The translations under genes and the position numbers were made by a program. The notes beneath the pieces were generated by a model. The model saw only the letters and a list, made by a program, of their open reading frames with translations. It was not told where the DNA came from and ran no database searches. 60,458 nucleotides of DNA from an uncultured Desulfobacteraceae bacterium (GTDB lineage: Bacteria; Desulfobacterota; Desulfobacteria; Desulfobacterales; BuS5): positions 1 through 60,458 of the forward strand of contig CAYZXU010000002.1 of the NCBI GenBank assembly GCA_964482535.1, read 5' to 3'. Every line of letters begins with the position of its first letter. Position 1 is the first letter of the stretch. This document shows positions 271 through 50,710 of the stretch, piece after piece.

Positions 271-319
271 ATTTGGTCTTAACATGGGTCATGTTTTAAT
301 TGAAAGAAGGGGATTGCAT

Positions 320-598: not shown

Positions 599-783
599 GT
601 TTTACTGTCCATATAATAGGAGATGCTGAGAAAGATTTATATGAAATCTATAATTATGTCAGAAAATCGGACTTTCCGCTCAATGCCCAAAAAATATTTT
701 CACGGCTGAAACAGGCATGCCTCAGTCTTGCGGATAATCCGGAACGAGGGCATATTCCACCAGAGCTTGAAAGAATAGCGGCA
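595..783 (+). pseudogene. ParE/RelE-family toxin, 3'-truncated remnant
   Basis: The first ~62 codons (MSFTVHIIGDAEKDLYEIYNYVRKSDFPLNAQKIFSRLKQACLSLADNPERGHIPPELERIA) look like the N-terminal two thirds of a ParE toxin. The expected continuation (G-I-x-E-Y-R ... P-Y-R-I-I-Y ... H-G-x-R) is missing. The rest of the 104-codon ORF (to 909) is simply the antisense of the convergent HTH gene. Confidence 0.6.
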
Positions 784-1058
784 AGTTTTTTGGCAGTAGC
801 CAGGCTGATAGTTCTATTGCCACGTTCCATGTTGGAAATGATCTGGCGGGGAACTTTGCCTATTTTTTCGCCAAGTTGGGCCTGGGTCAGGTTATGGTTT
901 TTCCGGTAAATCCGCATTGCGTCGCCTGGGCTGGTTTGTGCTTTGATTTTTTTATACCAGTCCGTTTCAGTGGCTTCGACGTATTCGTCGTCTCCTTCAT
1001 AAATTTTCAATTCACCGCCATACTCCTTTACAAAAAAAATGCGCTGATAAAAGATCAT
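654..1058 (-). CDS. XRE-family helix-turn-helix protein (antitoxin-like); native 3' end apparently lost
   Basis: Residues ~43-96 (PGDAMRIYRKNHNLTQAQLGEKIGKVPRQIISNMERGNRTISLATAKKLAAIL) form a classical Cro/C1-type HTH. Recognisable similarity stops near nt 771. The remaining 38 codons (to 654) read through the antisense of the parE remnant. Confidence 0.55.
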   Translation of the reverse strand: MIFYQRIFFVKEYGGELKIYEGDDEYVEATETDWYKKIKAQTSPGDAMRIYRKNHNLTQAQLGEKIGKVPRQIISNMERGNRTISLATAKKLAAILSSSGGICPRSGLSARLRHACFSRENIFWALSGKSDFLT

Positions 1059-1096: not shown

Positions 1097-1840
1097 TTAT
1101 TTTTTTAAAAAGCGTACTTTACATTTCAAACCTGCAGAGAGTTTATATGAAGGATTGGAAAGTTTCAGCCGTACGCCGAAAGTTCCGCTTGCAGCATCTA
1201 CTATTTGGTCCACAATCACAGCTCTTACTTTATACACACCACCTACCGGTGATTCCGGGCGAACCTCCGCAAGCATATTTTTTTTTATTAAATTGATTAA
1301 TTCAACCGGAACATTCACTTCAACATACAGCGGATTTATTTCAGCAATAGTCATTATTGAATCATCACCAATATATTCTCCGGGGGAACCGGTGCGTTCC
1401 ACAACAATGCCGCTTATGGGACTTCTTATAGTACGCAGTGTAAGCCTTTCTAGTTCTTCCTGAAGCTGCAGTTCCATAATCTTCAATTCCGTTTCAAGCT
1501 CATCTTTATCATGAACCGATATTAGCTGTTTGTCATAAAGCTCTTTGTTTCGTTCAAGCTTTCTTTTGCCGAATTCAACACGTGCACCGGCAAGATTAAC
1601 CGCTGCAGTTTCAACACCTGATTTTAACCTTGCAAGCACCTGGCCTTTTCTTATTCTATCACCTCTTTCCACTGTAATTTCATCTAATATGCCGGGAACC
1701 TGACTGCTGACATTTACGACTTCGCTGGGTTCAATAATGCCGTCAATTTCCACAAATTCAGAATCTGCAAATGACACCAGAGCCGGGAGAAATAAAAATA
1801 AAATAAAATAGACTAAAATTTTCTTATACCGAACAATCAT
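1097..1840 (-). CDS. small membrane-fusion (HlyD/RND-adaptor family) periplasmic adaptor
   Basis: There is a signal-anchor (KKILVYFILFLFLPALVSFA). It is followed by a lipoyl-like motif (VSSQVPGILDEITVERGDRIRKGQVLARL), a short coiled-coil hairpin, SPISGIVVER, and a beta-barrel region. ATG 1840 has AGGAG (1848-1852) 7 nt upstream, and that SD overlaps the SecA-like TAG stop (1851-1853). ATG 1846 and the ORF-track start at 1885 are alternatives. Confidence 0.8.
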   Translation of the reverse strand: MIVRYKKILVYFILFLFLPALVSFADSEFVEIDGIIEPSEVVNVSSQVPGILDEITVERGDRIRKGQVLARLKSGVETAAVNLAGARVEFGKRKLERNKELYDKQLISVHDKDELETELKIMELQLQEELERLTLRTIRSPISGIVVERTGSPGEYIGDDSIMTIAEINPLYVEVNVPVELINLIKKNMLAEVRPESPVGGVYKVRAVIVDQIVDAASGTFGVRLKLSNPSYKLSAGLKCKVRFLKK

Positions 1841-1850
1841 TTTCATACTC

Positions 1851-3839
1851 CTATTCAGATCTACCGGAAAAAGACAGCATGTCACCGATTCTCTCCACCT
1901 GCTTAAATAAATGCTTTCTTATTTTTCCATGTTGTTTTTCAACCTTTTTTTGAGCATATATAATCGCAAATTTCCCGGCAAGTGTCCAGGCCGGAATCCT
2001 GAAACGCATCATTATAAGGGTGATAAAACTAAAAACCGAAAATTCCCTTTGAACCAGGTGATCCTCCATTGAGAGAAAAGGCTCAAAACTTCCGGGATCT
2101 CCCTGACGGGCGCAACGACCTTGAAGCTGCCTGTCAATACGGGCAGCATCATGTTTTTCTGTTAAAATTACGTGAAGACCCTTATTTTTTGCAACGCTTT
2201 TCTTTAGGATAATATCAGTTCCCCGGCCAGCCATGTTTGTGGCAATGGTAATACACCCGGGCTGCCCTGCTTCAGCAATAATATTTGCCTCTTCTTTATC
2301 CTGCCTTGCATTTAATACACGGTGTTTGATTCCTTCCCGGGCAAGAAGAAAACTGACACGCTCGGAAGCTGCAACGGAACGTGTTCCTGTTAGAACAGGT
2401 CTTCCATCGTTTTGCATTTGTTTAAGACGTTTTACTACAGCCTGCCACTTTAATTCTTCTGTTGGAAAAATTTTGTCACGATAACTGTCCCTGATCACAG
2501 GGCGGTTTGTGGGGATGCTGATAACCGGCAATTCATATACATGCCACAGCTCATTTTTAACCTCCATGGCTGTTCCAGTCATTCCAGACAGATTCAGATA
2601 CCGCCTGAAAAAACTCTGATAACTTATTTTGGATAGAGACTCCCGCTGTTTTGTCACTTCGCACCCTTCTTTTAATTCAATAAGCTGGTGCAGACCTTTT
2701 TCCCATGAACGGTCGGGCATTAATCTTCCTGTAAATTCATCAATAATATGAATTTTATTGTCCTGGATCAGGTAATGTTCATCCCTGTGGAAGAAATGCA
2801 AGGCTGTCAGGGCTTTTTGAATGATATCTTCTCTTCTTATGGTTCCGGTCCATAAATGCCCCAGGGCTTCGGTCTTTTCAATAATTAGAAGTTTTCCTTT
2901 TTTTGTAAGCTTAATCAGTTGCTGGGAACGATCAATGATATAGTCGGTTCCTTCAAGGATCTCACCGGCAATTGAAATAGCCTGTTCCATAAAAAGCTGC
3001 TCATCTTTTCCCCCTGATGTTCCTGAAATAATTAAAGGCGTTCTTGCTTCATCAATAAGAATACTGTCTGCCTCATCAACAATTGCAAAACAAAGACCTC
3101 TTTGAAGAAGACGACGGGATTTTGAGTTATTGCTGCAGATATTTTCAGCCTGCAAGTAAAGATGATGCCCTCTGTTTTCTAATGTTATCCTGTCCCTCAG
3201 ATAATCAAATACAACATCTTTATTGGTACAATAAGTAACATCACACTGATAAGCCTCTCTGCGTGCATCGGGCTCAAGTTCATGGGTAATGCAGCCGACT
3301 GTAAGGCCGAGAGCCCTGTAGACAGGCCCCATTGATTCGGCATCCCTTGCAGTAAGGTAATCGTTTATGCTGATAACATGAACAGGTATTCCGGCAAGTG
3401 CAGCGGTGCCTGCTGCAAGAGTTGCGGTAAGCGTTTTTCCTTCGCCGGTTGCCATTTCAGCTACCATTCCGTTCAAGAGAACCCATCCTCCAATAATCTG
3501 AACATTATAATGTTTCATATTGATTGTTCTGCCTGCGATTTCCCGGATTAAGGAAAAAGATTGTGCTGACAAATCTTCTTCAAATCCTTTTTTATGGAGT
3601 TCTAAACGCAGATCAGCAATCATGGTTTTCAACTGTTTGTCGGATTTTTTCATTAAACCGGATGAATATGCTTCCACAAGAGAAACAAAACGTTTGCGGT
3701 TTATGCCTCCGGAAGAAGAATAAACATAAAGTCCTTTTATTATTCCTGCAACCACATCAAAAGGACCTGATCGTTTACTTTTTTTTTCAGGACGAAAATT
3801 AACAGTGGCCGGAGGATATGAAGAGACAATGGTTTTCAT
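1851..3839 (-). CDS. SecA-family motor ATPase, C-terminally truncated paralogue (662 aa)
   Basis: Near-canonical SecA motor motifs are present: MATGEGKTL (GEGKT = 3432..3446), AIVDEADSILIDEARTPLIISG, HIIDEFTGRLMPDRSWEKGLHQLIELKEG, SYQSFFRRYLNLSGMTGTA, IPTNRP, ATNMAGRGTDI, RIDRQLQGRCARQGDPG and LSMEDHL. The protein ends 17 residues after AQKKVEKQHGKIRKHLF, which corresponds to the start of the SecA helical scaffold. The wing domain, two-helix finger and Zn-binding tail are therefore absent. Confidence 0.85.
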   Translation of the reverse strand: MKTIVSSYPPATVNFRPEKKSKRSGPFDVVAGIIKGLYVYSSSGGINRKRFVSLVEAYSSGLMKKSDKQLKTMIADLRLELHKKGFEEDLSAQSFSLIREIAGRTINMKHYNVQIIGGWVLLNGMVAEMATGEGKTLTATLAAGTAALAGIPVHVISINDYLTARDAESMGPVYRALGLTVGCITHELEPDARREAYQCDVTYCTNKDVVFDYLRDRITLENRGHHLYLQAENICSNNSKSRRLLQRGLCFAIVDEADSILIDEARTPLIISGTSGGKDEQLFMEQAISIAGEILEGTDYIIDRSQQLIKLTKKGKLLIIEKTEALGHLWTGTIRREDIIQKALTALHFFHRDEHYLIQDNKIHIIDEFTGRLMPDRSWEKGLHQLIELKEGCEVTKQRESLSKISYQSFFRRYLNLSGMTGTAMEVKNELWHVYELPVISIPTNRPVIRDSYRDKIFPTEELKWQAVVKRLKQMQNDGRPVLTGTRSVAASERVSFLLAREGIKHRVLNARQDKEEANIIAEAGQPGCITIATNMAGRGTDIILKKSVAKNKGLHVILTEKHDAARIDRQLQGRCARQGDPGSFEPFLSMEDHLVQREFSVFSFITLIMMRFRIPAWTLAGKFAIIYAQKKVEKQHGKIRKHLFKQVERIGDMLSFSGRSE

Positions 3840-3844
3840 AATAA

Positions 3845-5998
3845 TTAAATATTGAATTTATTAAGAAGCAGACGACGGAAATCCCGATACCACCGAAAAA
3901 CAAGGGGTTCCGGTTCGTGTTCAAAACGCACATACACCCTTTCGCCGACTCTGTTAACGAAAACACCTTCCAATTCTATTTCTATTTGAAATAATCTTTC
4001 AAATGCCTTTGGTTTATTATTTTGTCTTGGATCGAGAACAATATCGCCTCCGCCTTCTGAACTGAACGCCATGCTTGGCAGATCTTCAGAAGCTGCGGGC
4101 ACCACTCTTTTTATTGTTGATGGAATAATTTTTTTCATATTACCGGCGAGTCTTGATTCTACTTTTATAGAACTTTGAAACACCCTGTCCGCTTTGGTCT
4201 GGGATATGATAACAAGTGCGGTAGCATCATCCGAATCATTTATAACAAACCCTAATTGTTCGCCTCTTTGAATAAAACGTCCTGGGAGATCCTGAGAAGA
4301 CATGGGCAATAAAAATATTCCGTCTTTAGGACTGTAAATCGTCAATTCCCCGCTTCGTTCCATTGCCCTTTTTAATTCCGCATTTACCCTTTTTATTTCA
4401 TCATTTAAAATGTCCGCCTCAGTTCTGTTTTCTATCATGCTTTTCATATGCATCAACTTCAATTCTAAAAGTTTGGCCTTTAATTTTTTGACCCGGACAA
4501 CAAGTTCAAGATTTTCACAGATGATAAGGGGAGCGCCTGCTTTGACTTTTTCACCGGAAACGGCAGCAACCTCTTTAATAAACCCACTGGTTTTTATGTG
4601 GATTCTGGATTGTTCAGGCGGCCATAATACTCCCTGGGCATCAGTAATATAGCTCATGGGAACAATAATGAACAGGGGAGGAATCAAAAGACAAACAGTA
4701 AACAGGATTATTTTTAAAATGCGTTTTTGTTTTTTTTTAAAGCTGTAATTCATAATAAGATATTTGACACCCCTGAATGCCGGCATGACCAGCATGGTGA
4801 ATCCGCACCATAACGCAAGCAGGATCCCGATTAAAAAAAATTTGCCGGCAACCATTATGATGATTCTTATGGAGATAAAGATTCTGTATATGAATGCCGC
4901 AACACCGTATATCCCCATTAATAATGCTTCGCCTTTTGCGGTTGCCGGAGATTGAGCAGCTTTATCTTCAAGTAGATAGCGGCGTAAAAGATAACCGATA
5001 TACTGATTGCTGCGGGTTCCCATATTGGGGATTTCCAGATAATCCGAAAGAACATAATATGCATCAAACCGAAGAAGAGGATTCCCATTGAACAGCAGGG
5101 TGGAAATACTTGCTACAAGAATAATGTTATAAGTAATTGCGCGAATATTTCCAGGCTCAATATTTACCCATATTATTAAAGCAAGGGCTGCAATAAAAAG
5201 TTCGCATAAAATACCTGCTGCACCTACCAGCATGCGTTTTTTTTTGTCGGAAAATGCAATGGAAGCTGATGCATCCATATAGGGTATAGGCATAAAAACA
5301 AGCAGCATAATACCCATAACATGAACTTCACCACCCCATTTTTTTACGGCATAGGCATGGGCAAATTCATGAAAAAGTTTTAAAACAGGGTATACAAACC
5401 AGAGCAGCATTAAATTTTGTGCGCTTAAAGCCCTGTCAATGATATTCAAAGTAAGATCATTCCAGTGTACCATTAGAATTGATAGAGCATACAAAACAAT
5501 GGTCAACCAGATTATTGCCCCTGAAATACTGAAAACACTTTTCCCGATTAAGGCGGTTTTGTTTAAAAACCTGTCAGGATCAAAAATCGGCAACTGTATA
5601 CTTACCGGCGATTTCAGTATATTCATCATCCCTTTTCGTTTTTCCTGCTTAAAACGATAGTGAAGATTCGCAATATCGGAAGGCAGATCGGATTGTATGG
5701 CATCTACACTGTGAAGCTGGGAAAGCAGATTTATAACTTCGTCCTGGGTAGGCATATCGTCACCAAGATGTTCACATGCCTGTTCCCATATCCGGTTAAG
5801 AGTATTTTTGCCATCCATAAAACCGATGATATAATAGGCTTCCGGTGAAAAACGATGAAATTTTCCCGTGGAATTATCCTGAAGAATATACCAGTCTTCA
5901 TCGCGGTACGTGTGGCGATGAATTTTAACATGGCTGCGTAATATCGGTTTAATCGATTCAACACGGTACCATGACTGGCTGAAAAGCGTTTCGCTCAT
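3845..5998 (-). CDS. PqqD-like domain - M50/site-2-protease-like polytopic metalloprotease - HlyD fusion (717 aa)
   Basis: Residues ~15-100 show a PqqD/RRE-like pattern (KPILRSHVKIHRHTYRDEDWYILQDNSTGKFHRFSPEAYYIIGFMDGKNTLNRIWEQ...). Several hydrophobic TM segments follow. The HExxH motif is HEFAH at 5357..5371, within a hydrophobic stretch, and the second S2P motif is NGNPLLRFDAYY (aa 304-315). A last TM (ILFTVCLLIPPLFIIVPM) precedes a ~250-aa MFP-type region (VSGEKVKAGAPLIICENLEL ... KLKAKLLELKLMHMKS ... ELTIYSPKDGIFLLP). Confidence 0.8.
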   Translation of the reverse strand: MSETLFSQSWYRVESIKPILRSHVKIHRHTYRDEDWYILQDNSTGKFHRFSPEAYYIIGFMDGKNTLNRIWEQACEHLGDDMPTQDEVINLLSQLHSVDAIQSDLPSDIANLHYRFKQEKRKGMMNILKSPVSIQLPIFDPDRFLNKTALIGKSVFSISGAIIWLTIVLYALSILMVHWNDLTLNIIDRALSAQNLMLLWFVYPVLKLFHEFAHAYAVKKWGGEVHVMGIMLLVFMPIPYMDASASIAFSDKKKRMLVGAAGILCELFIAALALIIWVNIEPGNIRAITYNIILVASISTLLFNGNPLLRFDAYYVLSDYLEIPNMGTRSNQYIGYLLRRYLLEDKAAQSPATAKGEALLMGIYGVAAFIYRIFISIRIIIMVAGKFFLIGILLALWCGFTMLVMPAFRGVKYLIMNYSFKKKQKRILKIILFTVCLLIPPLFIIVPMSYITDAQGVLWPPEQSRIHIKTSGFIKEVAAVSGEKVKAGAPLIICENLELVVRVKKLKAKLLELKLMHMKSMIENRTEADILNDEIKRVNAELKRAMERSGELTIYSPKDGIFLLPMSSQDLPGRFIQRGEQLGFVINDSDDATALVIISQTKADRVFQSSIKVESRLAGNMKKIIPSTIKRVVPAASEDLPSMAFSSEGGGDIVLDPRQNNKPKAFERLFQIEIELEGVFVNRVGERVYVRFEHEPEPLVFRWYRDFRRLLLNKFNI

Positions 5999-6028
5999 TA
6001 TATTATTTTTTCCCCTTTGAGCGAGCCC

Positions 6029-7885
6029 TTATGGAAGCCATGACCATGTCCAAAGGATAAACCATTCTCTAAGATCTTTTGTCCAGATACCTATTAGTTT
6101 TCGCCTGTCCACATATATCTTGCCGACACCTTCCATGCCCGGTCTGAGCGGGGTGGAATCGGATTCGATTCGTGCCTCAACCCGGAAACTGTTTTGCCCT
6201 TCTTCTGCTATTGTTATGGGGGTAATTTTACTGACTTTAAAATTAAAATGTTTTTCAGGAAAAGAAAAAAGGAGAAGAGTTCCGGACTGGTTTTCCTTAA
6301 TATCGGAAATGCGTTTTTCATCAATTTTTAAAATAATTCTGTATGAATCAAGTGGCGCGATTTCAAAAAGCATCTCCCCTTGCTGCACAGGTCCGCCAAA
6401 CTTCTGGGAAAGATCTCCAGAAACAAGTATTCCCTTAAAAGGCGCTTTTATTAAAGTTCGTGCAAGCTGATTTTCGACAAGTTCAAGTTCTGCATCTGTC
6501 TGCTTAATACGAGCATTGATAATATTAACTTCAGCCCGATTATGATCGGCAAGAGCTTCCTGGTGTTTACTTTTTAATTGTGATTTTTCACTTAACAGGC
6601 TTATGCGTTCTAATCTCAGGTCCCTGTCATCAAGGACGCACAGCACTGTGTTTTTGTTTACAATATCCCCTGCGCGAAAGCTGGATTCTTCCACAAAACC
6701 GTTAAAGGGAGCAGCAACAATACGACGAATTTCTCCTTCAAGGACAGCATCGGCTGAAATTCTGTAATCTCCGTTTTTATAACCAAAAAAAACAATTAAA
6801 CATATAAGCATGGTAACAAAAATTTTTCTCCCGGGATATCCTGTCCCTGTCAAGCGGATGATCTGATTTTTTAATGATTCTTTTATTTTTAAAAAAAGGT
6901 GACGATCATTTTTTCGTTTATCTTCAAGGGCCGGACCTGCAAGAGAAATAACGCCGGTGCAAAATTCCAGATCAACTTCGGTAAATGGAAATTCATGAGG
7001 ACGTTCAAGTGTTAATGCTCCAAAATAGCAATCGTTTCCGAACAGGGGAATAGTTAAAATTGATCCTGAACCATGCCCTTTGGAAAGCAGGTCATGGTCA
7101 CGTATTATTATGGCGCTTTTCTCGTCCTGATAGTCGGGAAAAATAATTTCCCGGCGTTGAACAACAGCTTCATCCATTGCTTTTTCAATATCACGAATAA
7201 GATTCATTCGCTCGCCGAATTTGGAACTGTGGGACAGCGCCTGAATCCGCATTCTGTTTTTTTTTACAAACCCGATGCTTACCCTGTCACATTTCAGTTG
7301 CGTAGCAAGTTTTGTAACAAAAGCCATTGCAGATCCTTCAAACCTGTCTTCCGCAAAAGCTTCCGCAAGAAGTGTAACAGCAGATGTTAATCGACCAAGA
7401 GCCGCTTCTTCTTCCCTGGAACGTTCCCTGCGAAATAAAAGCTCCAGCCAGGAAATACCCCATTGAAGCTGTTCCATTGCATATTTTAATTCTTCTTCCG
7501 TTCTGGCGGATATTTCAACAGCCACAGAGCCGAAAAGTTCCAGGTCAACCAATACAGGATATCCAAGACCAAAATTAGAAGAGGAATCATTATCCAGCTC
7601 AATCAAAAGGCCGCAACGTTTTTCAAGCACTCTTTCCAATAAATCGGCAAGCTGTTTGGGATCACCTCCCTTTTCAGGCCATTTTGATACTGGTTCATAG
7701 GATTTTTTTGATTCCGGACTCCCAATAACCAGTACGCTGGAAACAATATTCGGGATCAGAAGAGACTGAAGAGCTAACCAGTTATGAAAATATTCATCCC
7801 TGTTTTGGGTTTTAGAAAATCTGCTCCATATTTCTGAAAAACCATCTTTCTTATTTTCTACACTGATTGCTGATTTTTGATCCAT
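6029..7885 (-). CDS. tandem GAF-like sensor - TM - HlyD/MFP fusion (619 aa)
   Basis: ATG 7885 has GGGG (7894-7897) 8 nt upstream; the ORF-track start at 7951 adds 22 weakly supported codons. The cytoplasmic half has two GAF-like halves; the second one (MAFVTKLATQLKCDRVSIGFVKK ... GSILTIPLFGNDCYFGALTLERPHEFPFTEVDLEF) is clear. One TM (IFVTMLICLIVFFGY) follows, then HlyD-type lipoyl, coiled-coil and barrel regions (APFNGFVEESSFRAGDIVNKNTVLCVLDD ... LIKAPFKGILVSGD). Confidence 0.75.
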   Translation of the reverse strand: MDQKSAISVENKKDGFSEIWSRFSKTQNRDEYFHNWLALQSLLIPNIVSSVLVIGSPESKKSYEPVSKWPEKGGDPKQLADLLERVLEKRCGLLIELDNDSSSNFGLGYPVLVDLELFGSVAVEISARTEEELKYAMEQLQWGISWLELLFRRERSREEEAALGRLTSAVTLLAEAFAEDRFEGSAMAFVTKLATQLKCDRVSIGFVKKNRMRIQALSHSSKFGERMNLIRDIEKAMDEAVVQRREIIFPDYQDEKSAIIIRDHDLLSKGHGSGSILTIPLFGNDCYFGALTLERPHEFPFTEVDLEFCTGVISLAGPALEDKRKNDRHLFLKIKESLKNQIIRLTGTGYPGRKIFVTMLICLIVFFGYKNGDYRISADAVLEGEIRRIVAAPFNGFVEESSFRAGDIVNKNTVLCVLDDRDLRLERISLLSEKSQLKSKHQEALADHNRAEVNIINARIKQTDAELELVENQLARTLIKAPFKGILVSGDLSQKFGGPVQQGEMLFEIAPLDSYRIILKIDEKRISDIKENQSGTLLLFSFPEKHFNFKVSKITPITIAEEGQNSFRVEARIESDSTPLRPGMEGVGKIYVDRRKLIGIWTKDLREWFILWTWSWLP

Positions 7886-8140
7886 AAAATATTCCCCAAA
7901 AAGTAATTTATACCTTTCCCTGCTAAGCCAGAAAAAAAACTTATCACACACGCTATGGGAATGTAAACCATATCGTTTGCTATGTAAATCAGCTATTTTG
8001 GAAAGCTATTGACACTTAGTTATTAAACGGTTTATTATATAAAGGTTATTTTTTTTCTGTCTTTCACTTCTTTTTTTTTATGATAAATTCAAAATTTTAA
8101 TAGATAATAATATATTTAGCAAAAAAGGAATTATTGCCTG
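7886..8140. promoter_or_regulatory. divergent control region between the GAF-HlyD operon and tolC/giant gene
   Basis: This is a 255-bp AT-rich non-coding gap between divergent starts at 7885 (-) and 8141 (+). GCTAT occurs four times (7952, 7979, 7992, 8005), the last three at 13-bp spacing. ATGTAAA occurs twice, 21 bp apart (7961, 7982). A TATAAA -10-like hexamer on the minus strand lies at 7907-7912. T8 and T9 tracts lie at 8049-8056 and 8071-8079. Confidence 0.5.
8009..8038 (+). promoter_or_regulatory. candidate sigma70-type promoter for tolC and the giant gene
   Basis: TTGACA (8009-8014), an 18-nt spacer, then TATTAT (8033-8038), about 100 nt upstream of ATG 8141. This is a pattern match only. 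Confidence 0.35.
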
Positions 8141-9526
8141 ATGAAGTCAAAAATTAAGCTTTTGCCATATGGAATGGTCTGGTTGACTAAACTATTATCA
8201 AGTAAAATATTTTTGTCTACTTTCGTTGTTTTAATTTTATTTTCAAGCCGGAGTTTATATGCAGAAGATTTAATGTTTTTTTATAATAGCGCCAGGGAAT
8301 TTGATGCTCAATTTTCAAAGGCAAAGTATGATAAGGCTGCCTCCCGTGAAATTATAAAACAGGCATATTCAAGACTTTTTCCCACATTAACCCTTAATGC
8401 CGAACATACTAATACAAAAGATGATATAAAAAGCAGTGACAATACTGTTTATGGTTCAGGGGTTGCCCATTATCCTTCCGACAGTTATACGCTTGCCCTT
8501 GTTCAGCCGATTTTCAATTTTTCATACATAATGGGTGTAATAAAAGCAAAGGAAGAAATCCGGCGTTCCGATGTTGAATATGTTAATGCCCGGCAGGAGA
8601 TAATCATCCGGGTTGCGGAAAATTATTTTAATACTTTGTCTGCAAAAGATAATTATGAATTTTATAAATCAGAACTTGCAGCAGTTGAACAGCATTATAA
8701 TCTTGCTAAGGTTCAACTGGATAATGGTCAGATACCTGTAACGGATATGCTGGATGCCAGGGCAAGATCGGCGACTGTTTTTGCAGATATGATAAAATCG
8801 GAAAATGAACTGGATGATGCCCGTGAGGCGCTTTATGTTGTAAGCGGGCAAAAGGATATTAAACTATCCGGCATACAAACCAATGCATCACTGGCTGCTC
8901 TTGAGCCGGCAGATTATGATTCATGGATGCAAATCGCTCTTGAAAAAAATCTGGAAATTATAATAGAAAAACATGAAGTTGAAATTGCAAAGCGCGAAAT
9001 TAAACGCTTAAAGGCAGATCATTTTCCGGTTTTAAATTTAGAGCTCAGGGATGAATGGAGCGATGTGGACGGTTCCCTTTTTGGCGGTGGCAGTGAAGTT
9101 GAAACACAAGAGATTGCTTTTCAATTGAGCTTTCCTATTTTTAAGGGCGGTTTTGTAAGTTCCCAGGTTCGGGAAGCATTACAACTGCATAAGGCTGCAA
9201 AAGAGGAACTGCGAAATAAAACACTGCTGGTTAAGAGAAAAACCCGCTCAACATATCTTGGTGTAAAAAGTGCGATTATCAGAGCAAATGCATATGAAAA
9301 ATCCGTTGAAGCACAGAAACTGACCCTTGAAGCAAAACAGCAAGGTTTTAAATCCGGTCTGTTTACCAGCCTTGATGTGCTGGACGCGGAAAGAGATCTA
9401 TATGAGGCGAAACGGGATTATACCAAGGCAAGGTATGATTATATTACCAATATCTTAAATCTTAAATTCAGTGTCGGTACATTGACGGAAGAAGATATTG
9501 CCAAGGTAAATACATGGCTGGATTAA
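8141..9526 (+). CDS. TolC-family outer-membrane channel protein
   Basis: 461 aa. A signal-peptide-like N-terminus ends ...SRSLYA/EDL. The protein has a two-fold internal repeat of long helical segments typical of the TolC/OEP family (ASREIIKQAYSRLFPTLTLNAEHT; RQEIIIRVAENYFNTLSAKDNYEF; ALEKNLEIIIEKHEVEIAKREIKRLKADHFPVLNLEL; LDVLDAERDLYEAKRDYTKARYDYITNILNLKFSVGTL). Confidence 0.85.
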   Translation: MKSKIKLLPYGMVWLTKLLSSKIFLSTFVVLILFSSRSLYAEDLMFFYNSAREFDAQFSKAKYDKAASREIIKQAYSRLFPTLTLNAEHTNTKDDIKSSDNTVYGSGVAHYPSDSYTLALVQPIFNFSYIMGVIKAKEEIRRSDVEYVNARQEIIIRVAENYFNTLSAKDNYEFYKSELAAVEQHYNLAKVQLDNGQIPVTDMLDARARSATVFADMIKSENELDDAREALYVVSGQKDIKLSGIQTNASLAALEPADYDSWMQIALEKNLEIIIEKHEVEIAKREIKRLKADHFPVLNLELRDEWSDVDGSLFGGGSEVETQEIAFQLSFPIFKGGFVSSQVREALQLHKAAKEELRNKTLLVKRKTRSTYLGVKSAIIRANAYEKSVEAQKLTLEAKQQGFKSGLFTSLDVLDAERDLYEAKRDYTKARYDYITNILNLKFSVGTLTEEDIAKVNTWLD

Positions 9527-9546
9527 ACTTGATTTAGTTTGGATAA

Positions 9547-12500
9547 ATGTTTCTCAGGGGGAAACTTGTGTTTTACAAATTAAAAAAAATTGCGAAAAAA
9601 AGAAAAGAGAGCCGCAGGAACAAGCCCAGGGATTTTCAAACAAAAAGGCGCAGGATAAGATTTGAAGCCTTGGAAGACAGAATTCTTCTGTCGGCAGATA
9701 TTCCTATTATAGCCTATGACCTTGCATCTGATACAGCCTTGCCTGCTTTTGCAGAACAGGAACAATTGTTTCATGAAGAAACTCCTGCCCCGCAAATTCA
9801 ATTTGAACCTGAATCCATGGCAGATCAGATTGAAAACATTGGTAAAGAAGAGAATGTTCAACCGGATTATCAGGATAATATTAATGAAGATTATCTTGAG
9901 GATCAGTTTCAAATATCATCAGCCACCCAGGCAACTGTTAATTTTTATCCGGAAAACCCGGAAGAACAGGTTGAAAAAATCAATGAAGTTGAGAATGCCG
10001 AACCCCTGAAGGCAGATCTGCAGTTCGTTGATAATATCTATCCGAAGTACACAGAGGAAGGAATACTTGCATCTGAAATCATAGCCCGCCATCAAGTTCG
10101 TGAGATAATAATTGTTGATTCATCCGTTCCTGATTACCATGGCCTGGTTAAAGAGATAACTGCCGTTGACAGCGAAAGCGACCATACAGATGCAGGTAAT
10201 GATAACACATCCCCCGACATTTTTTCTTCTATCACGTCTTCTATTCAGGAGCATGAAACATTACAAACCGGAGAACCTATCCACAGCAGTTCGGAAAAAA
10301 CAGAGATAAGCCCTGAACGCGGCATATTTGTTCTTGATTCCGGACGTGATGGATTTGAGCAGATAACTGAAATATTAAAAAAATATAAAGACGTTGGCGC
10401 TGTTCATATAATATCCCATGGATCAGCAGGATTAATACGTCTTGGCTCAGGTAAGATTGATAAAGAAGATCTGGAACAAAACAGAGCCATAATTAAAGAC
10501 TGGGGCAAGGCTTTGACCCCTGACGGAGATATCCTTGTTTATGGATGCAGCGTGGCTCAGGGGAAAACCGGTATCGAATTTGTTGAAAGCCTGGGCAATT
10601 TAACAGGCGCTGATGTCGCTGCATCTGATGATGCTACGGGAAGTTCTGACCGTGAGGGCGACTGGATGCTGGAGTACAGCACCGGTATTATTGAAAGTAA
10701 GCCTCTTTTTGGGAGTACACCGGACTATAGCTATTTGCTGGAAGATATTATTGGAACGGATGATAACGATACTTTATCTGGCAATAGTGAACAGGATGAT
10801 ACGCTGACCGGCGGCGCCGGGGATGACACCTACGTATTTCAGGACAATTGGGGAGACGATACTGTTGTTGAGAATATTGATGAGGGAGTGGACATTCTTG
10901 ATTTTTCTAATATAATAACGGATCTCACCTTCACCCTGCATGACGATGGAACCGTTTCTGTAACAGACGGCACCAATATTATCAACAACGCTGCCGGTAT
11001 AGAAAAATTGGTTGGCGGCAGCGGCCATGACACCCTCGTGGGTCCTGATGGGGGAGCTATCTGGAATCTGACAGGGGACAACACGGGAATTGTCAATGGT
11101 TTCATATTCAGCGGCATTGAGGACTTGAAGGGTTCTGCCACCGGACAGGACACTTTTATAGTCGAAAATAAGGCCAAATGGTTAGGGATTATCGACGGCG
11201 GTGGTGGAACGGATATACTCGATTTAACACCTGTTGCCGATAATTTGATTTTTACGATTCAAGACAGTGGAATCGTTTCTGTCAACACTGCCCCGGATAC
11301 CTGGTCTTCTCTCGGCATTATCCCTGAAGATGTTCTTTCACTCCTGAGTGACGGTCTGGAAATAGATAGTGTCAAGAATGTCGCCAAACTGGTCGGAGGA
11401 AGCGCAGACAATACTTTTGCCTTCGAGGACAATGCCTCCTTCGCGGGAACCGTCGACGGTAGTACGGGTATTACAAACACTCTGGACTACTCGGCTTTTA
11501 CCGATGATGTCAATGTGAATTTTGCAAACAGTACTGCCACGGCAACACTCGGGATCAATAATATGAACCGGGTCGTGGGTGAAAAAGACAAGCTGACTGT
11601 CACCTGCACCGATGCAGGAGAAGAGACCATATCTTTTTCTAACGACAAAGGTGTGATAGCGAGTGCTTTAAGCTGGGTCGGGCTGGATAATATCGAAGGT
11701 ACGCCCGGCAACGATGTGCTTACAGGTAATGACGGTTTCAACATTATTGTCGGAAAGTCAGGAGATGATCTCCTGATGGGCGAAGGCGGCCCTGACACGT
11801 ATAAGTTCGCTGATGGCTGGGGTGCCGATACTATCATGGATAGCGGTGGAATTGATATTCTGGATTTCACCATGTGTACGGCGGATCTAACGTTTACCAT
11901 ACACAATGACGGCACGGTCAGCGTAACTGACGGCACCAATAAAGTATTTGCCACTGATGACATTGAAGTGTTTATCGACGGTCTGGGCAACGACAAATTC
12001 GTTTTTGAAGACGGCGCGACCTTTGACGGAATAATCGGAAAACCCAACTGGCTGCAGAAGCTGCTTGGTACCAGTTTGATAGATTATGGATCCAATACTA
12101 TGGATCTGTCTGCATACACAACACCGGTTTACGTAGATCTGGGCATGAAAATTCCATATCTGGAACAGATCCTCTTTCAGCATGCATGGCAAACCGATGC
12201 CGGTGATCCAATAGTTAATACTTTTCATAACATATCCAATGTCATAGGCGGTTCTGCGGGCGATTTTATCTGGGGCAGTTCTGAAGCCAATATTTTAAAG
12301 GGAGGCGCCGGTGATGATGTGATTTTCGGCCGGGGCGGCGCTGATACGTTTTATGGCGGTACAGGTAACGATACCTTGTATGGCGGAATGGGCATGGATG
12401 ACCTGATGACTGTTATCGGTCTGCTTAAAGACCCTGCTGCCATAGCGGATCAATTCCTTGCTTCAGCCCCGGAACTTTTAATGTACATTGCTGACGGGGG

Positions 12501-15500
12501 CACAATCCAGAGTTACATCATGAACCTCATTGCCGGTGATGAGAATGTTGTATCTTACGCTGATGCAACATCTGCCGTAACCGTAGACCTGGGTCTGACT
12601 CTGGATCCGGATGACCTGGCAGGCTTTTTGCCTTATAGTACCGGTGGTGCAGGTAATGATACAATTATTGATATCCACAACGTTACAGGATCCCAATATG
12701 ATGATATCCTGAAGGGTAATTTGTTTGATAATACCATTAAGGGCGGCGTGGGTGACGATGAAATTTACGGCGGCCTGGGATCGGATACCATCATCGGCGG
12801 AAAGGGTGACGATACACTGGACGGCGGTGATTTGGGTGACGACATCAATCCGCTGGGCGACAGGGATATAGCTTCATACATTGACGCGGGAGCCGGAGTT
12901 ATGGTTGACCTGGGTATCAATGGGGTCCAGGACACCAGACGATGGGAGATCTTGCCCCACGTCAATGATGCGGTCGGCGGTCTGGTTGAGGGGCGGGATT
13001 ATGAAGTTGTATATGTAACAGATGACACGTTCAGTCTTAAGAGCCGGAGTGGTGGTGATATTGATATCACGCTCTCTCCACCAGGCGGTACCCATAGCTT
13101 TGATAAGGATGGAGTAATAAAATCCTTTACCCCTTCTGATGACCTGATGGACTATGATGGCAATATTTTTACCATCAACGGACATGGATTCAGTAACGGT
13201 GACATAGTTACATATGCTGCAGGCGGTGAAAAAATCTATACCAGCACAGGGATGGGTCACGACACCCTGATCAACATGGAGGGCGTCACCGGTTCCAATT
13301 ATGACGACGTCCTGATCGGTACTGATGGGTATAACATCATTAAAGGCGGCGCTGGAAATGACTTTCTGGTCAGTGGAAAAGGGTATGATATTGTTAGCGG
13401 TGGAGTGGGCATAGATACGATTTCCTATGAAGACGCTGATGCTATGGTATTTGTTAACCTTTGGGACCCACTACCGCAGATTACCGGGGGCTCGGATGTT
13501 GATACCCTGAAAGATATCGAAAACGTCATCGGGTCGGATTATGACGATATCCTCATCGGCAGCTTCGGGAACAACCTTCTTGAGGGTGGATTCGGTGATG
13601 ACATACTGTCAGGAACTATGGGAGCAGATATTTACAAGTTCCGGGACGGCTGGGGAGACGATACGGTTATAGACGACATCGAGAGCTTGATAGACTATAT
13701 CGATGGAAACGTGGATGCCGCAGATTATATCCAGAACGGGCTTGCCATAGCCAGTGAATGGCTGTCCAATGCTGTAGACACTGTTGATGTCCTGGAAATC
13801 CTGAATGATGCCGAAGAAAAGTCAGCCGAACATATTCCCGACACCCTGGATTTCACACAAACAACCGCTGACCTTTCGGTCAATATCCGTGGTTTTGGCG
13901 ATGTGCATGTGGGATACGGCGCAAACCAGACAAATGATATTTCCGAGATGGAAGTGATTTTGACCGGCGGCGGCAGTGATACATTCATCTTTGGAGTTAA
14001 TCCTCTCACAGGCGATCCGGAATCCTTTAACGGTAAAATCGATGGCGGAAGTGTGAATTACGCCAAATATCCGGATGCTCTTCCTGATGTGAACACTCTT
14101 GATTATTCAGCCAATGCCAAATCCGTTGTTGTGGATCTTGAAGCCCCGGAAGACGGATCACCGGGAGAAGCTCAGGGAACAAAAGGTGTTTATAACATAC
14201 ACAATGTTATCGGCGGTGACGGTGATGATACTTTGAAGGGATCTGCAGGAAATAATCTGCTGCTTGGCGGAAAAGGCAATGACCTGATCGAAGGCAGCGG
14301 CGGTGACGATGTCCTTGAAGGCGGTGCAGGAAACGACACTCTGATCGGTGGTGAAGGCTTCGATATGGTCTCCTATGTGACCTATGATAATAGCGTTGAT
14401 GACACGGGGATCTCCATTGATCTGGGCCTGGTAGACGGGGAGCAGGATACTGTTGGGGCTGGATTAGATATTTTAAAGAGTATCGAGGGTGCGGTCGGAT
14501 CGAAGCATGATGACACTCTCACTGGAGATGATCAGGACAATATGCTGATCGGCGGCAAGGGTGCTGATACCATTTACGGCATGGCCGGTAACGATTTGAT
14601 CTCCGGTGATGCGGACAACGATACCCTGTTCGGCGGTGCCGGTGACGATACCATCGAGGGCGGTGCCGGTGATGATTTCATGAACGCCGGTGCCGGTAAC
14701 GACACGGCATCCTACATTTATCCGGGAACGGCGGTGGATGTTGATCTGGCTATAACTGCCCTGCAGGATACCGGCGGCGCGGGAGAGGACACCCTTCGCA
14801 GCTTTGAGAATCTTATCGGTTCCAAAGGTGACGATACGCTCCGGGGCAATGATGAGGATAATGTTCTGACCGGCGGCGCCGGCGGCGACACCATTTACGG
14901 CAGGGACGGTAACGATCTTATCGTCGGTGAAGCGGGCGATGACATTCTCTACGGTGGTCTTGGGGATGATATCCTCAGCGGCGGCCAGGGGGATGATATT
15001 ATCGACGGGTATATCCAGGGCGGGGATCCGGCCGACGACCATGACATTGATACCGTTTCCTATGCGGAAGCGGCAAGCGGTGTGGTCATCAACCTGAACA
15101 TATCGGGACAAGCCCAGGACACCGAGGCTCTGGGCATAGACACCCTGCAGAATGTGGAAGGGGTCATGGGGTCCGATTATGATGATATCCTCACCGGCAA
15201 TGCCAGGGACAATATTCTTCTGGGACAGTCAGGTGATGATATTATCGAGGGTGGCCAGGGTGATGATATTATGTTCGGAGGCGAAGGTTTTGATTTTGTT
15301 TCCTATTCACTGTCCGACACGCCCGTATTTGTTGACCTGAGCATTACCTGGGAGCAGGAAACAGGAGACTCCACCGGCTGGGATGAGATTGCCGGCATCG
15401 AAGGTCTTATCGGATCGGACTATAATGATGTACTGACCGGCAATGAAGAGAAAAATGTCCTCATGGGAGGGCTGGGCGAAGACGAACTGGACGGCGGTGC

Positions 15501-50361: not shown

Positions 50362-50700
50362 ATGACTGAAAAAATTGATAAAAAAAAACAGACAGACATT
50401 AAAGCAGAAGACAATGATGCCGGCAAAACAAAAATCAAGTGGGATGGATCAAAAATGGTCAGCAATTATGCCAATGTCTGCAATGTTACAAGCACAAGAG
50501 AAGAGTTTACAATGCTGTTTGGAACAAATCAGAGCTGGAATGCCGCCCAAACAGAACTTGTTGTTGAGTTAACCAATCGTTTAATCATGAATCCCTATGC
50601 AGCCAAACGTTTATCCATGATACTTGGCGGGGTTGTTAAAGAATATGAATCAAGGTTTGGTTCTCTTGAAATTAATGCTGGAGACGCGCCAAATAAATAA
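50362..50700 (+). CDS. DUF3467-family small protein
   Basis: 112 aa with AGAGGA 8 nt upstream of the ATG. YANVCNVTSTREEFTMLFG ... NRLIMNPYAAKRLSMILGGVVKEYESRFGSLEI fits the DUF3467 pattern (Y-x-N ... T-x-x-EF-x-x-x-F ... R-x-x-x-x-P-x-x-AKRL ... YE-x-x-FG-x-I). Confidence 0.65.
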   Translation: MTEKIDKKKQTDIKAEDNDAGKTKIKWDGSKMVSNYANVCNVTSTREEFTMLFGTNQSWNAAQTELVVELTNRLIMNPYAAKRLSMILGGVVKEYESRFGSLEINAGDAPNK

Positions 50701-50710
50701 GGGTTTTATC

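What the first reader, a model, noticed from the sequence alone, without database searches (positions are those of the whole stretch)
3845..5998. Three-part fusion: PqqD/RRE-like leader-binding domain, intramembrane M50 protease and HlyD periplasmic adaptor
Seen in sequence: an N-terminal ~100 aa has a PqqD-like pattern. A polytopic core carries both S2P catalytic motifs, HEFAH (5357..5371) and NGNPLLRFDAYY. A final TM is followed by a ~250-aa MFP-type periplasmic region. Established knowledge: PqqD-like RRE domains bind leader peptides; S2P/M50 enzymes cleave within or next to hydrophobic segments at the membrane; HlyD-type domains bridge to TolC. Inference: one polypeptide could recognise the polybasic LEDRILLSAD leader of the giant protein, cleave it, and couple the substrate to the TolC duct. 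Such a protein would also be the only candidate inner-membrane conduit in the locus.
Basis: partly seen in the sequence, partly recalled or inferred. Interest (0 to 1): 0.72.

Follow-up and report, generated by a model that had tools for sequence, protein, structure and literature searches.

The report
Leader-binding protease-adaptor of a giant-protein exporter
This gene encodes a membrane protein that joins a leader-peptide-binding domain, a membrane-embedded zinc protease and a periplasmic adaptor, and it is probably the signal receptor and signal peptidase of a widespread, never-tested export machine for giant surface proteins.

Summary
ORF 3845..5998 (-) encodes a 717-aa protein with three parts:
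- a cytoplasmic RRE/PqqD-fold domain;
- a 7-helix site-2-protease (M50) core, whose HExxH and NxxPxxxxD residues are at least 97% conserved in 143 diverse relatives;
- a TM-anchored HlyD/MFP adaptor.

The family is large: 4047 clusters at 50% identity, nearly all about 715 aa.

The gene sits in a fixed cassette: GAF-MFP, this protein, a truncated SecA-like ATPase and a short MFP. TolC and DUF3467 are often nearby. Kamneva et al. described this cassette computationally in 2015, without a substrate and without noticing the RRE.

What is new here:
- In 35 of 47 loci with enough flank, a giant gene abuts the cassette.
- Where the neighbouring gene's N-terminus is visible, it carries the LEPR-XLL leader. 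That motif was proposed as an orphan export signal in 2004.
- Distant M50-MFP relatives also sit next to LEPR-leader genes, even without SecA.
- ABC transporters are absent.

Most likely mechanism (inferred): the RRE docks the leader, the S2P site removes it at the cytoplasmic face, the SecA-like motor pushes the chain N-to-C, and the MFPs and TolC form the duct.

No step has been tested experimentally. I score it as a new variant of TolC-dependent export, of high interest.

The parts
3845..5998 (-). Whole ORF, 717 aa: RRE - S2P/M50 - MFP fusion protein
5699..5998 (-). Residues 1-100: cytoplasmic RRE/PqqD-like winged-helix domain (strands 24-31, 34-41, 46-50; helices 52-59, 67-81, 85-97)
   Evidence: Pfam PqqD in 27 of 35 members. 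AF2 model. Foldseek top hits are TfuB1, TbiB1 and the CteB RRE. W10, R49, G63 and L95 are at least 97% conserved.
4661..5548 (-). Residues 151-446: seven-helix membrane core of site-2-protease (M50) type, with a re-entrant beta-hairpin at 227-242
5357..5371 (-). HEFAH (residues 210-214): zinc-binding and catalytic motif in TM2
   Evidence: H210, E211 and H214 at least 97% conserved
5054..5089 (-). NGNPLLRFDAYY (residues 304-315): second S2P motif, with D312 as the presumed third zinc ligand
   Evidence: N304, N306, P307 and D312 at least 97% conserved
3845..4660 (-). Residues 447-717 plus the stop codon: periplasmic membrane-fusion (HlyD/MFP) domain with lipoyl, alpha-hairpin (497-550) and beta-barrel parts, following TM7 (424-445)
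6029..7951 (-). GAF-domain MFP (cytoplasmic GAF, one TM, periplasmic HlyD domain); first gene of the cassette. The start may be the ATG that gives 618 aa.
   Evidence: syntenic in almost all 82 loci
1851..3839 (-). Truncated SecA-like ATPase (NBD1, preprotein cross-linking domain, NBD2). It lacks the wing domain, two-helix finger and C-terminal tail. Its start lies 5 nt after the stop of the target ORF.
   Evidence: syntenic
1097..1885 (-). Short MFP (about 250 aa) with an N-terminal signal or anchor
8141..9526 (+). TolC-family outer-membrane channel, divergent from the cassette and directly upstream of the giant gene
9547..50262 (+). Giant 13,571-aa protein, the presumed substrate: LEPR-XLL leader, DUF4347, and RTX repeats (detected in the C-terminal 400 aa)
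9547..9711 (+). Leader: polybasic N-region followed by FEALEDRILLSAD (NF012209 match at residues 38-55)
50362..50700 (+). DUF3467 small cytoplasmic protein. It travels with the 3' end of the giant gene or the 5' end of the cassette in about half of the loci.

Best explanation
The ORF encodes the central inner-membrane subunit of a TolC-dependent, T1SS-like exporter that has no ABC transporter. The exporter is dedicated to giant proteins that carry an N-terminal LEPR-XLL leader.

Shown by the tools:
- The protein is a cytoplasmic RRE-fold domain, a 7-TM site-2-protease core with an intact zinc site near the cytoplasmic face, and a TM-anchored periplasmic MFP.
- It is always encoded together with a GAF-MFP, a truncated SecA-like ATPase and a short MFP. 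TolC, DUF3467 and a giant LEPR-leader gene are usually present too.

Inferred:
1. The RRE captures the conserved leader core ([FL]E[AE]LE[PD]R[IL]L[LF][SD][AG][DA], preceded by Arg/Lys) as an added beta-strand, as RREs do with RiPP leaders.
2. The leader is presented to the HExxH/D site and cut off, much as SpoIVFB removes the pro-sequence of pro-sigmaK.
3. The SecA-like motor, which keeps the DEAD motor and the preprotein clamp but not the SecY-inserting finger, pushes the unfolded chain N-to-C. This may happen during translation.
4. The TM bundles of an MFP-templated oligomer form or gate the inner-membrane portal.
5. The three MFPs together with TolC make the periplasmic and outer-membrane duct. 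The GAF domain provides regulation.
For: - Architecture.
- Catalytic and RRE residues are at least 97% conserved across 143 representatives that are 34-47% identical to the window protein.
- The family is large and of fixed length.
- Gene order is conserved in 82 loci from Desulfobacterota, Alpha-, Beta- and Gammaproteobacteria, Omnitrophota and Myxococcota.
- A same-strand open frame of at least 1000 aa ends just upstream of the cassette in 35 of 47 loci with at least 6 kb of flank. LEPR motifs sit at the N-terminus of the neighbouring gene wherever that N-terminus is visible: L011, L035, L042, L046, L056, L058 and the window.
- From the substrate side, LEPR-leader genes in L085 (P. aeruginosa) and L088 lie next to distant M50-MFP homologues, even with no SecA-like gene in the locus. 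In the two loci examined the leader flavour (FDGA versus LLSAD) differs along with the M50-MFP subfamily. One DUF4347 protein without a leader has no cassette nearby.
- An ABC nucleotide-binding domain occurs in only 3 of 83 loci.
- The leader is the conserved element, while the giant's C-terminal tail is not.
- The SecA-like protein keeps the GEGKT and DEAD motifs and stops at B. subtilis SecA residue about 600.
- Literature: the motif was proposed as an orphan export signal (Studholme 2004, cited in PMC8567305). The cassette was proposed to be secretion-related (PMC4452313).
Against: - There is no experimental evidence for binding, cleavage, ATPase coupling or secretion.
- S2P proteases are not known to form protein-conducting channels, so the inner-membrane conduit is unexplained.
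- Pfam scores for PqqD and M50 are below the gathering thresholds for this particular protein.
- Foldseek E-values for the RRE are modest, 0.03-0.1.
- The PPXD of SecA could itself be the leader receptor.
- About a quarter of well-flanked loci, for example Methylobacterium L053, have no adjacent giant gene.
- The giant protein has C-terminal RTX repeats, so a classical T1SS encoded elsewhere cannot be excluded.
- The P. aeruginosa variant has no SecA-like gene in the locus, so SecA is not universally required.
Confidence: 0.55

Rival explanations
1. The cassette is a peptide (RiPP or bacteriocin) maturation and export system. The RRE-M50 part removes the leader of a small ribosomal peptide, and the MFP/TolC parts export that peptide. 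On this view the giant gene is only a frequent neighbour.
For: - The best curated match is the daptide biosynthesis intramembrane metalloprotease (E 9e-40); YydH/LiaK also matches.
- JGI names relatives 'putative peptide zinc metalloprotease'.
- RRE domains are otherwise known only from RiPP pathways (established knowledge).
Against: - No precursor-peptide or modification-enzyme genes were seen in the window or in the loci examined.
- The scores are far below the equivalog cut-offs, 137 against 300 bits.
- A giant gene abuts the cassette in 35 of 47 well-flanked loci, and its LEPR leader is the only conserved candidate leader.
- A SecA-type protein translocation motor is always present in the main family.
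Confidence: 0.08
2. The machine exports the giant protein, but the parts have different jobs. The PPXD clamp of the SecA-like ATPase recognises the LEPR leader. The RRE binds another partner (SecA-like, DUF3467 or the GAF-MFP). The M50 site acts as a clearing or quality-control protease for jammed substrate, or as a release protease, rather than as the signal peptidase.
For: - SecA binds signal peptides at the PPXD/scaffold groove (established knowledge), and the PPXD is retained.
- S2P enzymes such as RseP also degrade remnant signal peptides (established knowledge).
- The fold alone does not identify the RRE's ligand.
Against: - LEPR-leader genes are adjacent to M50-MFP homologues even where no SecA-like gene is in the locus.
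- In the two variant loci examined, the leader flavour differs along with the M50-MFP subfamily.
- The RRE edge strand (R49) and helix 3 (L95) are among the most conserved N-domain positions, as expected for a conserved peptide ligand.
Confidence: 0.22
3. The giant RTX protein is secreted C-terminus first by a classical ABC-type T1SS encoded elsewhere. The cassette handles only its N-terminus, by retention at or release from the cell surface, analogous to LapG/LapD control of LapA. It may instead regulate TolC use.
For: - RTX nonapeptide repeats lie near the C-terminus.
- A GAF sensor domain suggests signal-controlled behaviour.
- N-terminal retention modules exist in T1SS adhesins (established knowledge).
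Against: - No ABC exporter is linked in 80 of 83 loci.
- The C-terminal 250 aa are conserved only among the closest relatives, whereas the N-terminal leader is universal.
- The protease active site and the RRE face the cytoplasm, not the periplasm or the cell surface.
- A cytoplasmic SecA-type motor would have no role in surface release.
Confidence: 0.1
4. The M50 core is a catalytically silent scaffold or channel module, and no leader cleavage occurs. The leader stays on the mature protein as a membrane or cell-surface tether.
For: The cassette encodes no other polytopic protein, so a structural or channel role is needed (also proposed in PMC4452313).
Against: H210, E211, H214 and D312 are at least 97% conserved across 143 diverse representatives. 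That is hard to explain without catalysis or at least zinc binding.
Confidence: 0.05

Closest known systems
Secondary SecA_DEAD / T1SS-related conserved module (Kamneva, Poudel & Ward 2015, PMC4452313)
   Same: The gene set is the same: GAF-HlyD, Peptidase_M50-HlyD, a SecA_DEAD protein, a HlyD/biotin-lipoyl protein, and sometimes an OEP. The authors likewise suggested that SecA_DEAD replaces the ABC ATPase and that the M50 protein may be the membrane component.
   Different: That work was purely computational. It named no substrate, did not notice the PqqD/RRE domain, and made no link to an N-terminal leader or to giant proteins. Those links are made here.
Peptidase-containing ABC exporters with MFP and TolC (PCAT type, e.g. 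colicin V CvaAB-TolC)
   Same: The logic is the same. An N-terminal leader is recognised and cut by a protease that is part of the inner-membrane exporter, and export proceeds through MFP and TolC (established knowledge).
   Different: Here the protease is an intramembrane zinc S2P rather than a C39 cysteine peptidase. Recognition is by an RRE, the ATPase is SecA-like rather than ABC, the protease is fused to the MFP, and the cargo is 10,000 aa or more rather than a peptide. ABC domains are absent.
Classical type I secretion (HlyB-HlyD-TolC) of RTX proteins
   Same: Both use a TolC duct and HlyD-type adaptors. The profile hits HlyD 8dck and 7sgr. The cargo is rich in RTX repeats and lacks a Sec signal peptide.
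   Different: There is no ABC transporter. The conserved signal is N-terminal rather than C-terminal. There are three different MFPs, a SecA-like motor and an S2P protease.
RRE-containing RiPP leader peptidases / daptide intramembrane metalloprotease (NF041824) and YydH/LiaK
   Same: The N-terminal leader-binding domain plus M50 core is homologous: E 9e-40 over residues 20-407, aligned to profile positions 3-368 of 379. The fold matches lasso-peptide B1 RREs.
   Different: The score is well below the equivalog cut-off. This family has an added C-terminal TM and MFP. The genomic context is secretion rather than peptide modification, and the presumed substrate is a megadalton protein.
Site-2 proteases SpoIVFB and RseP
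   Same: HExxH lies in one TM helix and NxxPxxxxD in another. There is a re-entrant beta-hairpin, and the active site is near the cytoplasmic face. SpoIVFB removes an N-terminal pro-sequence from a non-membrane protein (PMC11486902, abstract).
   Different: There are no PDZ or CBS regulatory domains; an RRE and an MFP are present instead. A sequence search against PDB S2P entries finds nothing, so this is a distant branch.
Planctomycete 'extracellular' N-terminal motif (Pfam PF07595; NCBIfam LEPR-XLL NF012209)
   Same: The giant protein's leader matches both models. The motif was proposed in 2004 to be a novel export signal (cited in PMC8567305).
   Different: No cognate machinery had been assigned to it. 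The 2026 Chlorochromatium preprint still says that such giants 'lack known signals'.

Membership tests
Site-2 protease / Peptidase M50 | HExxH zinc motif inside a transmembrane helix | tested here: met
   HEFAH at residues 210-214 lies within predicted helix 196-220. It is at least 97% conserved.
Site-2 protease / Peptidase M50 | Second motif NxxPxxxxD(G) in another TM helix, supplying the third zinc ligand | tested here: met
   N304-G-N-P307-LLRF-D312 lies at the end of helix 284-304, and all key residues are at least 97% conserved. Ala replaces the usual Gly after the Asp.
Site-2 protease / Peptidase M50 | Passes the curated Pfam PF02163 threshold | tested here: inconclusive
   The window protein scores 21.8 bits against a cut-off of 27.2. 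32 of 35 relatives match at E<0.01. Distant subfamily members pass, at 31.9 and 39.9 bits.
Site-2 protease / Peptidase M50 | Proteolytic activity on a membrane-proximal substrate | not testable with these tools
   Needs biochemistry or N-terminal proteomics.
RiPP recognition element (PqqD-like wHTH) | Three-stranded antiparallel sheet followed by three helices | tested here: met
   The AF2 model has strands 24-31, 34-41 and 46-50 and helices 52-59, 67-81 and 85-97. Foldseek's top hits are TfuB1, TbiB1 and the CteB RRE, with TM 0.70 normalised on the target.
RiPP recognition element (PqqD-like wHTH) | Passes the Pfam PF05402 threshold | tested here: not met
   15.7 bits against a cut-off of 23.4. 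27 of 35 relatives match at E<0.01, best 1.6e-5. The profile search against PDB sequences finds nothing. Membership therefore rests on fold and family-level signal.
RiPP recognition element (PqqD-like wHTH) | Binds a leader peptide as an extra strand between beta-3 and helix 3 | not testable with these tools
   No complex prediction was available. Only the conservation of R49 (beta-3) and L95 (helix 3) is suggestive.
Membrane fusion protein / periplasmic adaptor (HlyD family) | TM anchor followed by lipoyl (barrel-sandwich), alpha-hairpin and beta-barrel domains | tested here: met
   Pfam HlyD_D23 matches 34 of 35 members and HlyD_3 matches 30 of 35. The profile hits MacA, HlyD and EmrA, including the TM region. 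Foldseek gives E 2e-11 to 1e-10 against MacA, MexA and AcrA. The hairpin helices are 497-523 and 525-550.
Membrane fusion protein / periplasmic adaptor (HlyD family) | Works with a TolC-family outer-membrane factor | tested here: inconclusive
   A TolC gene is adjacent in the window (294 bits, TIGR01844) and in some loci: L011, L026, L035, L048, L085 and L087. Physical docking was not tested.
Classical type I secretion system | Dedicated ABC transporter as energiser and inner-membrane channel | tested here: not met
   There is no ABC gene in the window locus. A Walker A plus LSGGQ pair occurs in only 3 of 83 loci.
Classical type I secretion system | C-terminal, uncleaved secretion signal on the substrate | tested here: inconclusive
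   RTX repeats are present near the C-terminus. The last 250 aa are conserved only in the closest relatives, and the universally conserved element is N-terminal.
Kamneva 2015 SecA_DEAD/T1SS-related module | Co-encoded GAF-HlyD, M50-HlyD, a SecA_DEAD protein lacking the C-terminal SecA domains, and a HlyD/biotin-lipoyl protein | tested here: met
   All four are present and contiguous at window 1097..7951. The same order is seen in 82 loci.
Daptide intramembrane metalloprotease (NF041824 equivalog) | Score at or above the curated equivalog cut-off (300 bits), and a daptide biosynthetic context | tested here: not met
   136.9 bits. No daptide-type genes are nearby.

The most novel reading that the evidence does not exclude
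The RRE-S2P-MFP protein is the signal receptor, signal peptidase and inner-membrane portal of a distinct protein secretion pathway. That pathway uses an N-terminal LEPR-XLL leader, a SecA-like motor and a TolC duct, and it has neither an ABC transporter nor SecYEG. It exports the largest known bacterial proteins N-terminus first, possibly while they are still being translated. If so, this would be the first use of a RiPP-type leader-recognition domain in protein secretion. It would also assign a machine to an export signal that has been an orphan since 2004, and to the giant Chlorochromatium and Omnitrophota-type proteins.
Probability: 0.4. Interest if true: 0.88.

Novelty: new variant of a known kind. 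Interest (0 to 1): 0.74.

Why it matters
How bacteria move proteins of 10,000-36,000 residues across two membranes is unknown. The 2026 study of the Chlorochromatium symbiosis giants states that they lack a known transport signal.

This locus, and hundreds like it, physically link three things:
- an orphan N-terminal signal (LEPR-XLL, also known as PF07595);
- an orphan secretion-like cassette (SecA_DEAD, M50-HlyD, GAF-HlyD, HlyD);
- TolC.

Within the cassette, they point to one protein with the right parts and topology to read and remove the signal.

That turns an open question into simple experiments: leader-peptide binding, an E211A mutant, and N-terminal proteomics. Organisms that carry the system include Methylobacterium extorquens AM1, Pseudomonas, Vibrio, Neptuniibacter, Marinobacterium and Bradyrhizobium.

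It would also extend RRE domains beyond natural-product biosynthesis, and S2P proteases beyond signalling. A short transferable export tag for very large or repetitive proteins would have biotechnological value.

Tried and rejected
- Sequence or profile searches of PDB with the N-domain alone, the M50 core alone and DUF3467 gave nothing significant. Only the MFP part is reachable by sequence.
- A Foldseek search with the whole model is swamped by MFP hits. A separate model of residues 1-135 was needed to see the RRE.
The probability was 0.4%, so the idea is not supported.
- A RiPP or defence reading is rejected for lack of precursor or modification genes, and because of the giant-gene synteny.
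- A canonical T1SS is rejected because no ABC transporter is linked.
- A universal C-terminal signal on the giant proteins is not supported by tblastn of the last 250 aa.
- My first LEPR regex, which required an upstream Met, undercounted loci such as L056, L058 and L042 that one search had found. The LEPR counts are therefore lower bounds.
- Literature searches for LEPR-XLL, LEPRxLL, DUF4347, DUF3467, and SecA_DEAD with Peptidase_M50 found no experimental work on the system.
- The source organism could not be named. The window matches only metagenome contigs.
Full report
**1. The observation**

The window has an ATG-initiated ORF on the minus strand at 3845..5998, encoding 717 aa. NGNPLLRFDAYY is residues 304-315 (5054..5089).

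NCBIfam gives a strong hit to the daptide biosynthesis intramembrane metalloprotease, E 9e-40 over residues 20-407. It also gives weaker hits to YydH/LiaK, a PqqD-related ScmD model and several MFP models.

At family level the signals are consistent. Of 35 homologues, 34 match HlyD_D23, 32 match Peptidase_M50 and 27 match PqqD.

**2. Structure and topology**

An AlphaFold2 model built on 35 homologues (mean pLDDT 75.7) predicts four parts:
- an N-terminal beta-beta-beta-alpha-alpha-alpha domain, residues 24-97;
- seven long membrane helices, with a beta-hairpin at 227-242 between the HExxH helix and the next helix;
- a last TM helix at 424-445;
- a C-terminal lipoyl, alpha-hairpin and beta-barrel module.

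Foldseek with the whole model returns MFPs (MacA, MexA, AcrA, EmrA) at E about 1e-11. A sequence profile also reaches MacA, HlyD (8dck, 7sgr) and EmrA, including the TM anchor.

I modelled residues 1-135 separately (core pLDDT about 90). The best PDB matches are leader-peptide-binding RRE proteins:
- TfuB1 with its leader (6jx3): probability 1.0, TM 0.70 on the target, rmsd 3.2 A over 91 columns;
- TbiB1 with leaders (5v1u, 5v1v);
- the RRE of the sactipeptide enzyme CteB.

The E-values are modest (0.03-0.1), but RREs take eight of the first eleven places.

Hydropathy and the positive-inside rule fit an N-in, C-out topology with seven TMs. The Lys/Arg-rich segments at 100-150, 251-255, 329-346 and 405-427 fall on the cytoplasmic side. 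This places the RRE in the cytoplasm, HExxH and D312 toward the cytoplasmic ends of their helices as in RseP and SpoIVFB (established knowledge), and the MFP in the periplasm.

**3. The family**

The indexed search returned more than 6,400 relatives. The best 120 are 49-93% identical and almost all are 712-717 aa long.

The exhaustive search of 50%-identity representatives found 4,047 clusters at E<=1e-30. Nearly all of the top 150 are aligned end to end.

In an alignment of 143 of these representatives (34-47% identical to the query), several positions are at least 97% conserved. In the protease core these are H210, E211, H214, N304, N306, P307 and D312. In the RRE they are W10, R49 (edge strand beta-3), G63 and L95 (helix 3). 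An intact zinc site under this much constraint argues for a working protease, not a degenerate scaffold.

**4. Genomic context**

In the window the gene lies in a minus-strand operon:
- GAF-MFP (6029..7951);
- the target ORF;
- a SecA-like gene (1851..3839, starting 5 nt after the target's stop);
- a short MFP (1097..1885).

Divergently on the plus strand lie:
- TolC (8141..9526);
- a 13,571-aa ORF (9547..50262);
- DUF3467 (50362..50700).

The SecA-like protein keeps GEGKT, DEAD, the preprotein cross-linking domain and NBD2. It aligns only to residues 22-598 of B. subtilis SecA. It therefore lacks the wing domain, the two-helix finger that enters SecY, and the C-terminal tail.

None of the other cassette proteins is polytopic.

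In 82 related loci the order GAF-MFP, M50-MFP, SecA-like, short MFP is almost invariant. These loci come from Desulfobacterota, Alpha-, Beta- and Gammaproteobacteria, Omnitrophota, Myxococcota and others. DUF3467 precedes the cassette in about half of them.

ABC-type nucleotide-binding domains occur in only 3 of 83 loci.

**5. The substrate link**

The giant protein begins MFLRGKLVFYKLKKIAKKRKESRRNKPRDFQTKRRRIRFEALEDRILLSAD. Three matches define this N-terminal region:
- NCBIfam LEPR-XLL (NF012209), at 26.7 bits against a cut-off of 17;
- Pfam PF07595, weakly;
- DUF4347, which follows the leader.

There is no hydrophobic Sec-type core.

Of 47 related loci with at least 6 kb upstream, 35 have a same-strand open frame of at least 1000 aa that ends just before the cassette. 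Called genes of 12,129 and 15,183 aa occupy that position in L001 and L002.

Where the giant gene is downstream or divergent, so that its start is visible, the start carries the motif:
- L011: LEPRILLS
- L035 (Omnitrophota): ...RRARPAHFEAMESRILLSAN
- L042
- L046
- L056
- L058

From 82 N-termini the leader is basic (Arg at -8 to -6), followed by [FL]E[AE]-L-E-[PD]-R-[IL]-L-[LF]-[SD]-[AG]-[DA]. Its median start is residue 27, and an acidic stretch follows. The window holds exactly one such motif.

The giant's last 250 aa are conserved only among its closest relatives.

I also looked from the substrate side.
- In a Pseudomonas aeruginosa accessory island (L085), a LEPR-leader/DUF4347 gene of the 'LEPRMLFDGA' flavour lies directly after a short MFP, a GAF-MFP and a 699-aa M50-MFP that is 25% identical to the window protein. 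An OEP lies downstream, and the locus holds no SecA-like gene.
- In L088 a 718-aa M50-MFP (23% identical) ends 4 nt before another FDGA-flavour gene.
- A DUF4347 protein without a leader (Microcoleus) has no cassette nearby. This is a single control.

The M50-MFP is thus the most constant partner of the leader. In the two variant loci examined, its subfamily differs along with the leader flavour.

**6. Literature**

Kamneva et al. 2015 (PMC4452313) described the GAF / M50-HlyD / SecA_DEAD / HlyD module. They proposed that SecA_DEAD replaces the ABC ATPase and that the M50 protein might be the membrane component. They did not mention PqqD, a leader, a substrate or giant proteins.

The motif RRLxxExLExRxLLA was proposed as a novel export signal in Rhodopirellula by Studholme et al. 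2004. I know this only as cited in PMC8567305.

A 2026 preprint notes LEPRxLL at the N-termini of the 36,806- and 20,647-aa Chlorochromatium proteins but states that they lack known transport signals.

West-Roberts et al. 2023 note SecA_DEAD domains without wing or scaffold in giant Omnitrophota proteins.

A major review of tripartite pumps and T1SS does not cover this module.

I found no experimental study.

**7. Mechanism**

What is shown: the domain architecture, the topology, conservation of the catalytic residues, the fixed cassette, and its linkage to LEPR-leader giant genes.

What is inferred:
- The cytoplasmic RRE binds the leader core.
- The S2P site cleaves it at the cytoplasmic face.
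- The SecA-like motor drives N-to-C translocation. An N-terminal signal would allow export to begin before a 40-kb message has been fully translated.
- MFP-driven oligomerisation of the 7-TM cores provides the portal.
- The three MFPs and TolC complete the duct.
- The GAF domain regulates.

The weakest step is the conduit, because no S2P is known to conduct proteins. The P. aeruginosa variant without a SecA-like gene in its locus shows that the energy source may differ between subfamilies.

**8. Comparison and verdict**

The system works like a leader-cleaving exporter of the PCAT/CvaAB-TolC type, and like a T1SS in using MFP and TolC. It is a member of neither, because the ABC transporter, a defining feature, was tested and is absent.

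It is a member of the module described in 2015.

Its RRE-M50 half is homologous to RiPP intramembrane leader peptidases but scores below their equivalog thresholds.

I rate it a new variant of a known kind, TolC-dependent export. The parts and the genomic logic fit, but the biochemistry is untested.

Noticed in passing
window 9547-50262 versus the flanks: The giant gene runs at 46-55% GC over most of its length. The cassette and all flanking genes are at 35-42% GC. The cause could be amino-acid composition (Gly/Ala/Val/Asp-rich repeats) or a foreign origin for the gene.
   Followed up: no
window 50362-50700 (+); L001 7212-7541; L002 5522-5851: A small cytoplasmic DUF3467 protein (about 110 aa) travels with the 3' end of the giant gene or the 5' end of the cassette in about half of the loci, and it is well conserved. 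It may be a dedicated chaperone or targeting factor. No significant similarity to SecB or to any PDB sequence was found.
   Followed up: partly
L085 5711-16500 (Pseudomonas aeruginosa GCA_001374135.1): A variant system sits in an accessory island flanked by transposases. It comprises a short MFP, a 439-aa GAF-MFP, a 699-aa M50-MFP, a LEPR(FDGA)/DUF4347 protein of 572 aa, a 1014-aa Big_12 protein and an OEP, with no SecA-like gene. This is a possible tractable model, and it shows that SecA is not universal.
   Followed up: partly
N-termini of P0271-P0390: The leader comes in two flavours...LEPRxLLSAD... and ...LEPRxxFDGAAA.... Many other DUF4347 proteins start directly with the domain and have no leader.
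   Followed up: partly
L035 5157-22103 (Candidatus Omnitrophota MAG): This locus holds TolC, a short MFP, DUF3467, a GAF-MFP and an M50-MFP, followed by an open frame of more than 3,150 aa with the leader FEAMESRILLSAN. No separate SecA-like gene is in the locus. It may connect to the report that giant Omnitrophota proteins carry their own SecA_DEAD domains (bioRxiv 10.1101/2023.11.21.568195).
   Followed up: partly
window 9547-50262, giant-protein residues about 6670-9710: There are many repeated Gly/Ala/Val-rich hydrophobic stretches, for example AAVAGGVVGVGVSIGVSFA, that score like TM segments in a hydropathy scan. They are probably repeat structure rather than membrane spans.
   Followed up: no
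window 284-909 (+) and 654-1058 (-): A Phd/YefM-ParE toxin-antitoxin pair lies here, together with an overlapping opposite-strand HTH_3 (Xre-type) ORF at the distal end of the cassette. The HTH protein could regulate the cassette or belong to the TA module.
   Followed up: no
window 50624-51322 (+): A 232-aa Cys-rich ORF overlaps the end of the DUF3467 gene. It has no Pfam or NCBIfam match, and it is unclear whether it is a real gene.
   Followed up: no
window 51362-60457 (+): XerD-type recombinase, then PfaD (enoyl reductase of the polyunsaturated fatty acid synthase), then a PKS-like open frame of more than 2,140 aa that runs off the window. This suggests a marine or cold-adapted organism. 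The window otherwise matches only metagenome contigs.
   Followed up: no
window 6029-7951 (-): The start of the GAF-MFP gene is ambiguous. The longest ORF starts at a GTG (640 aa), but metagenome gene calls use a downstream ATG (618 aa).
   Followed up: partly
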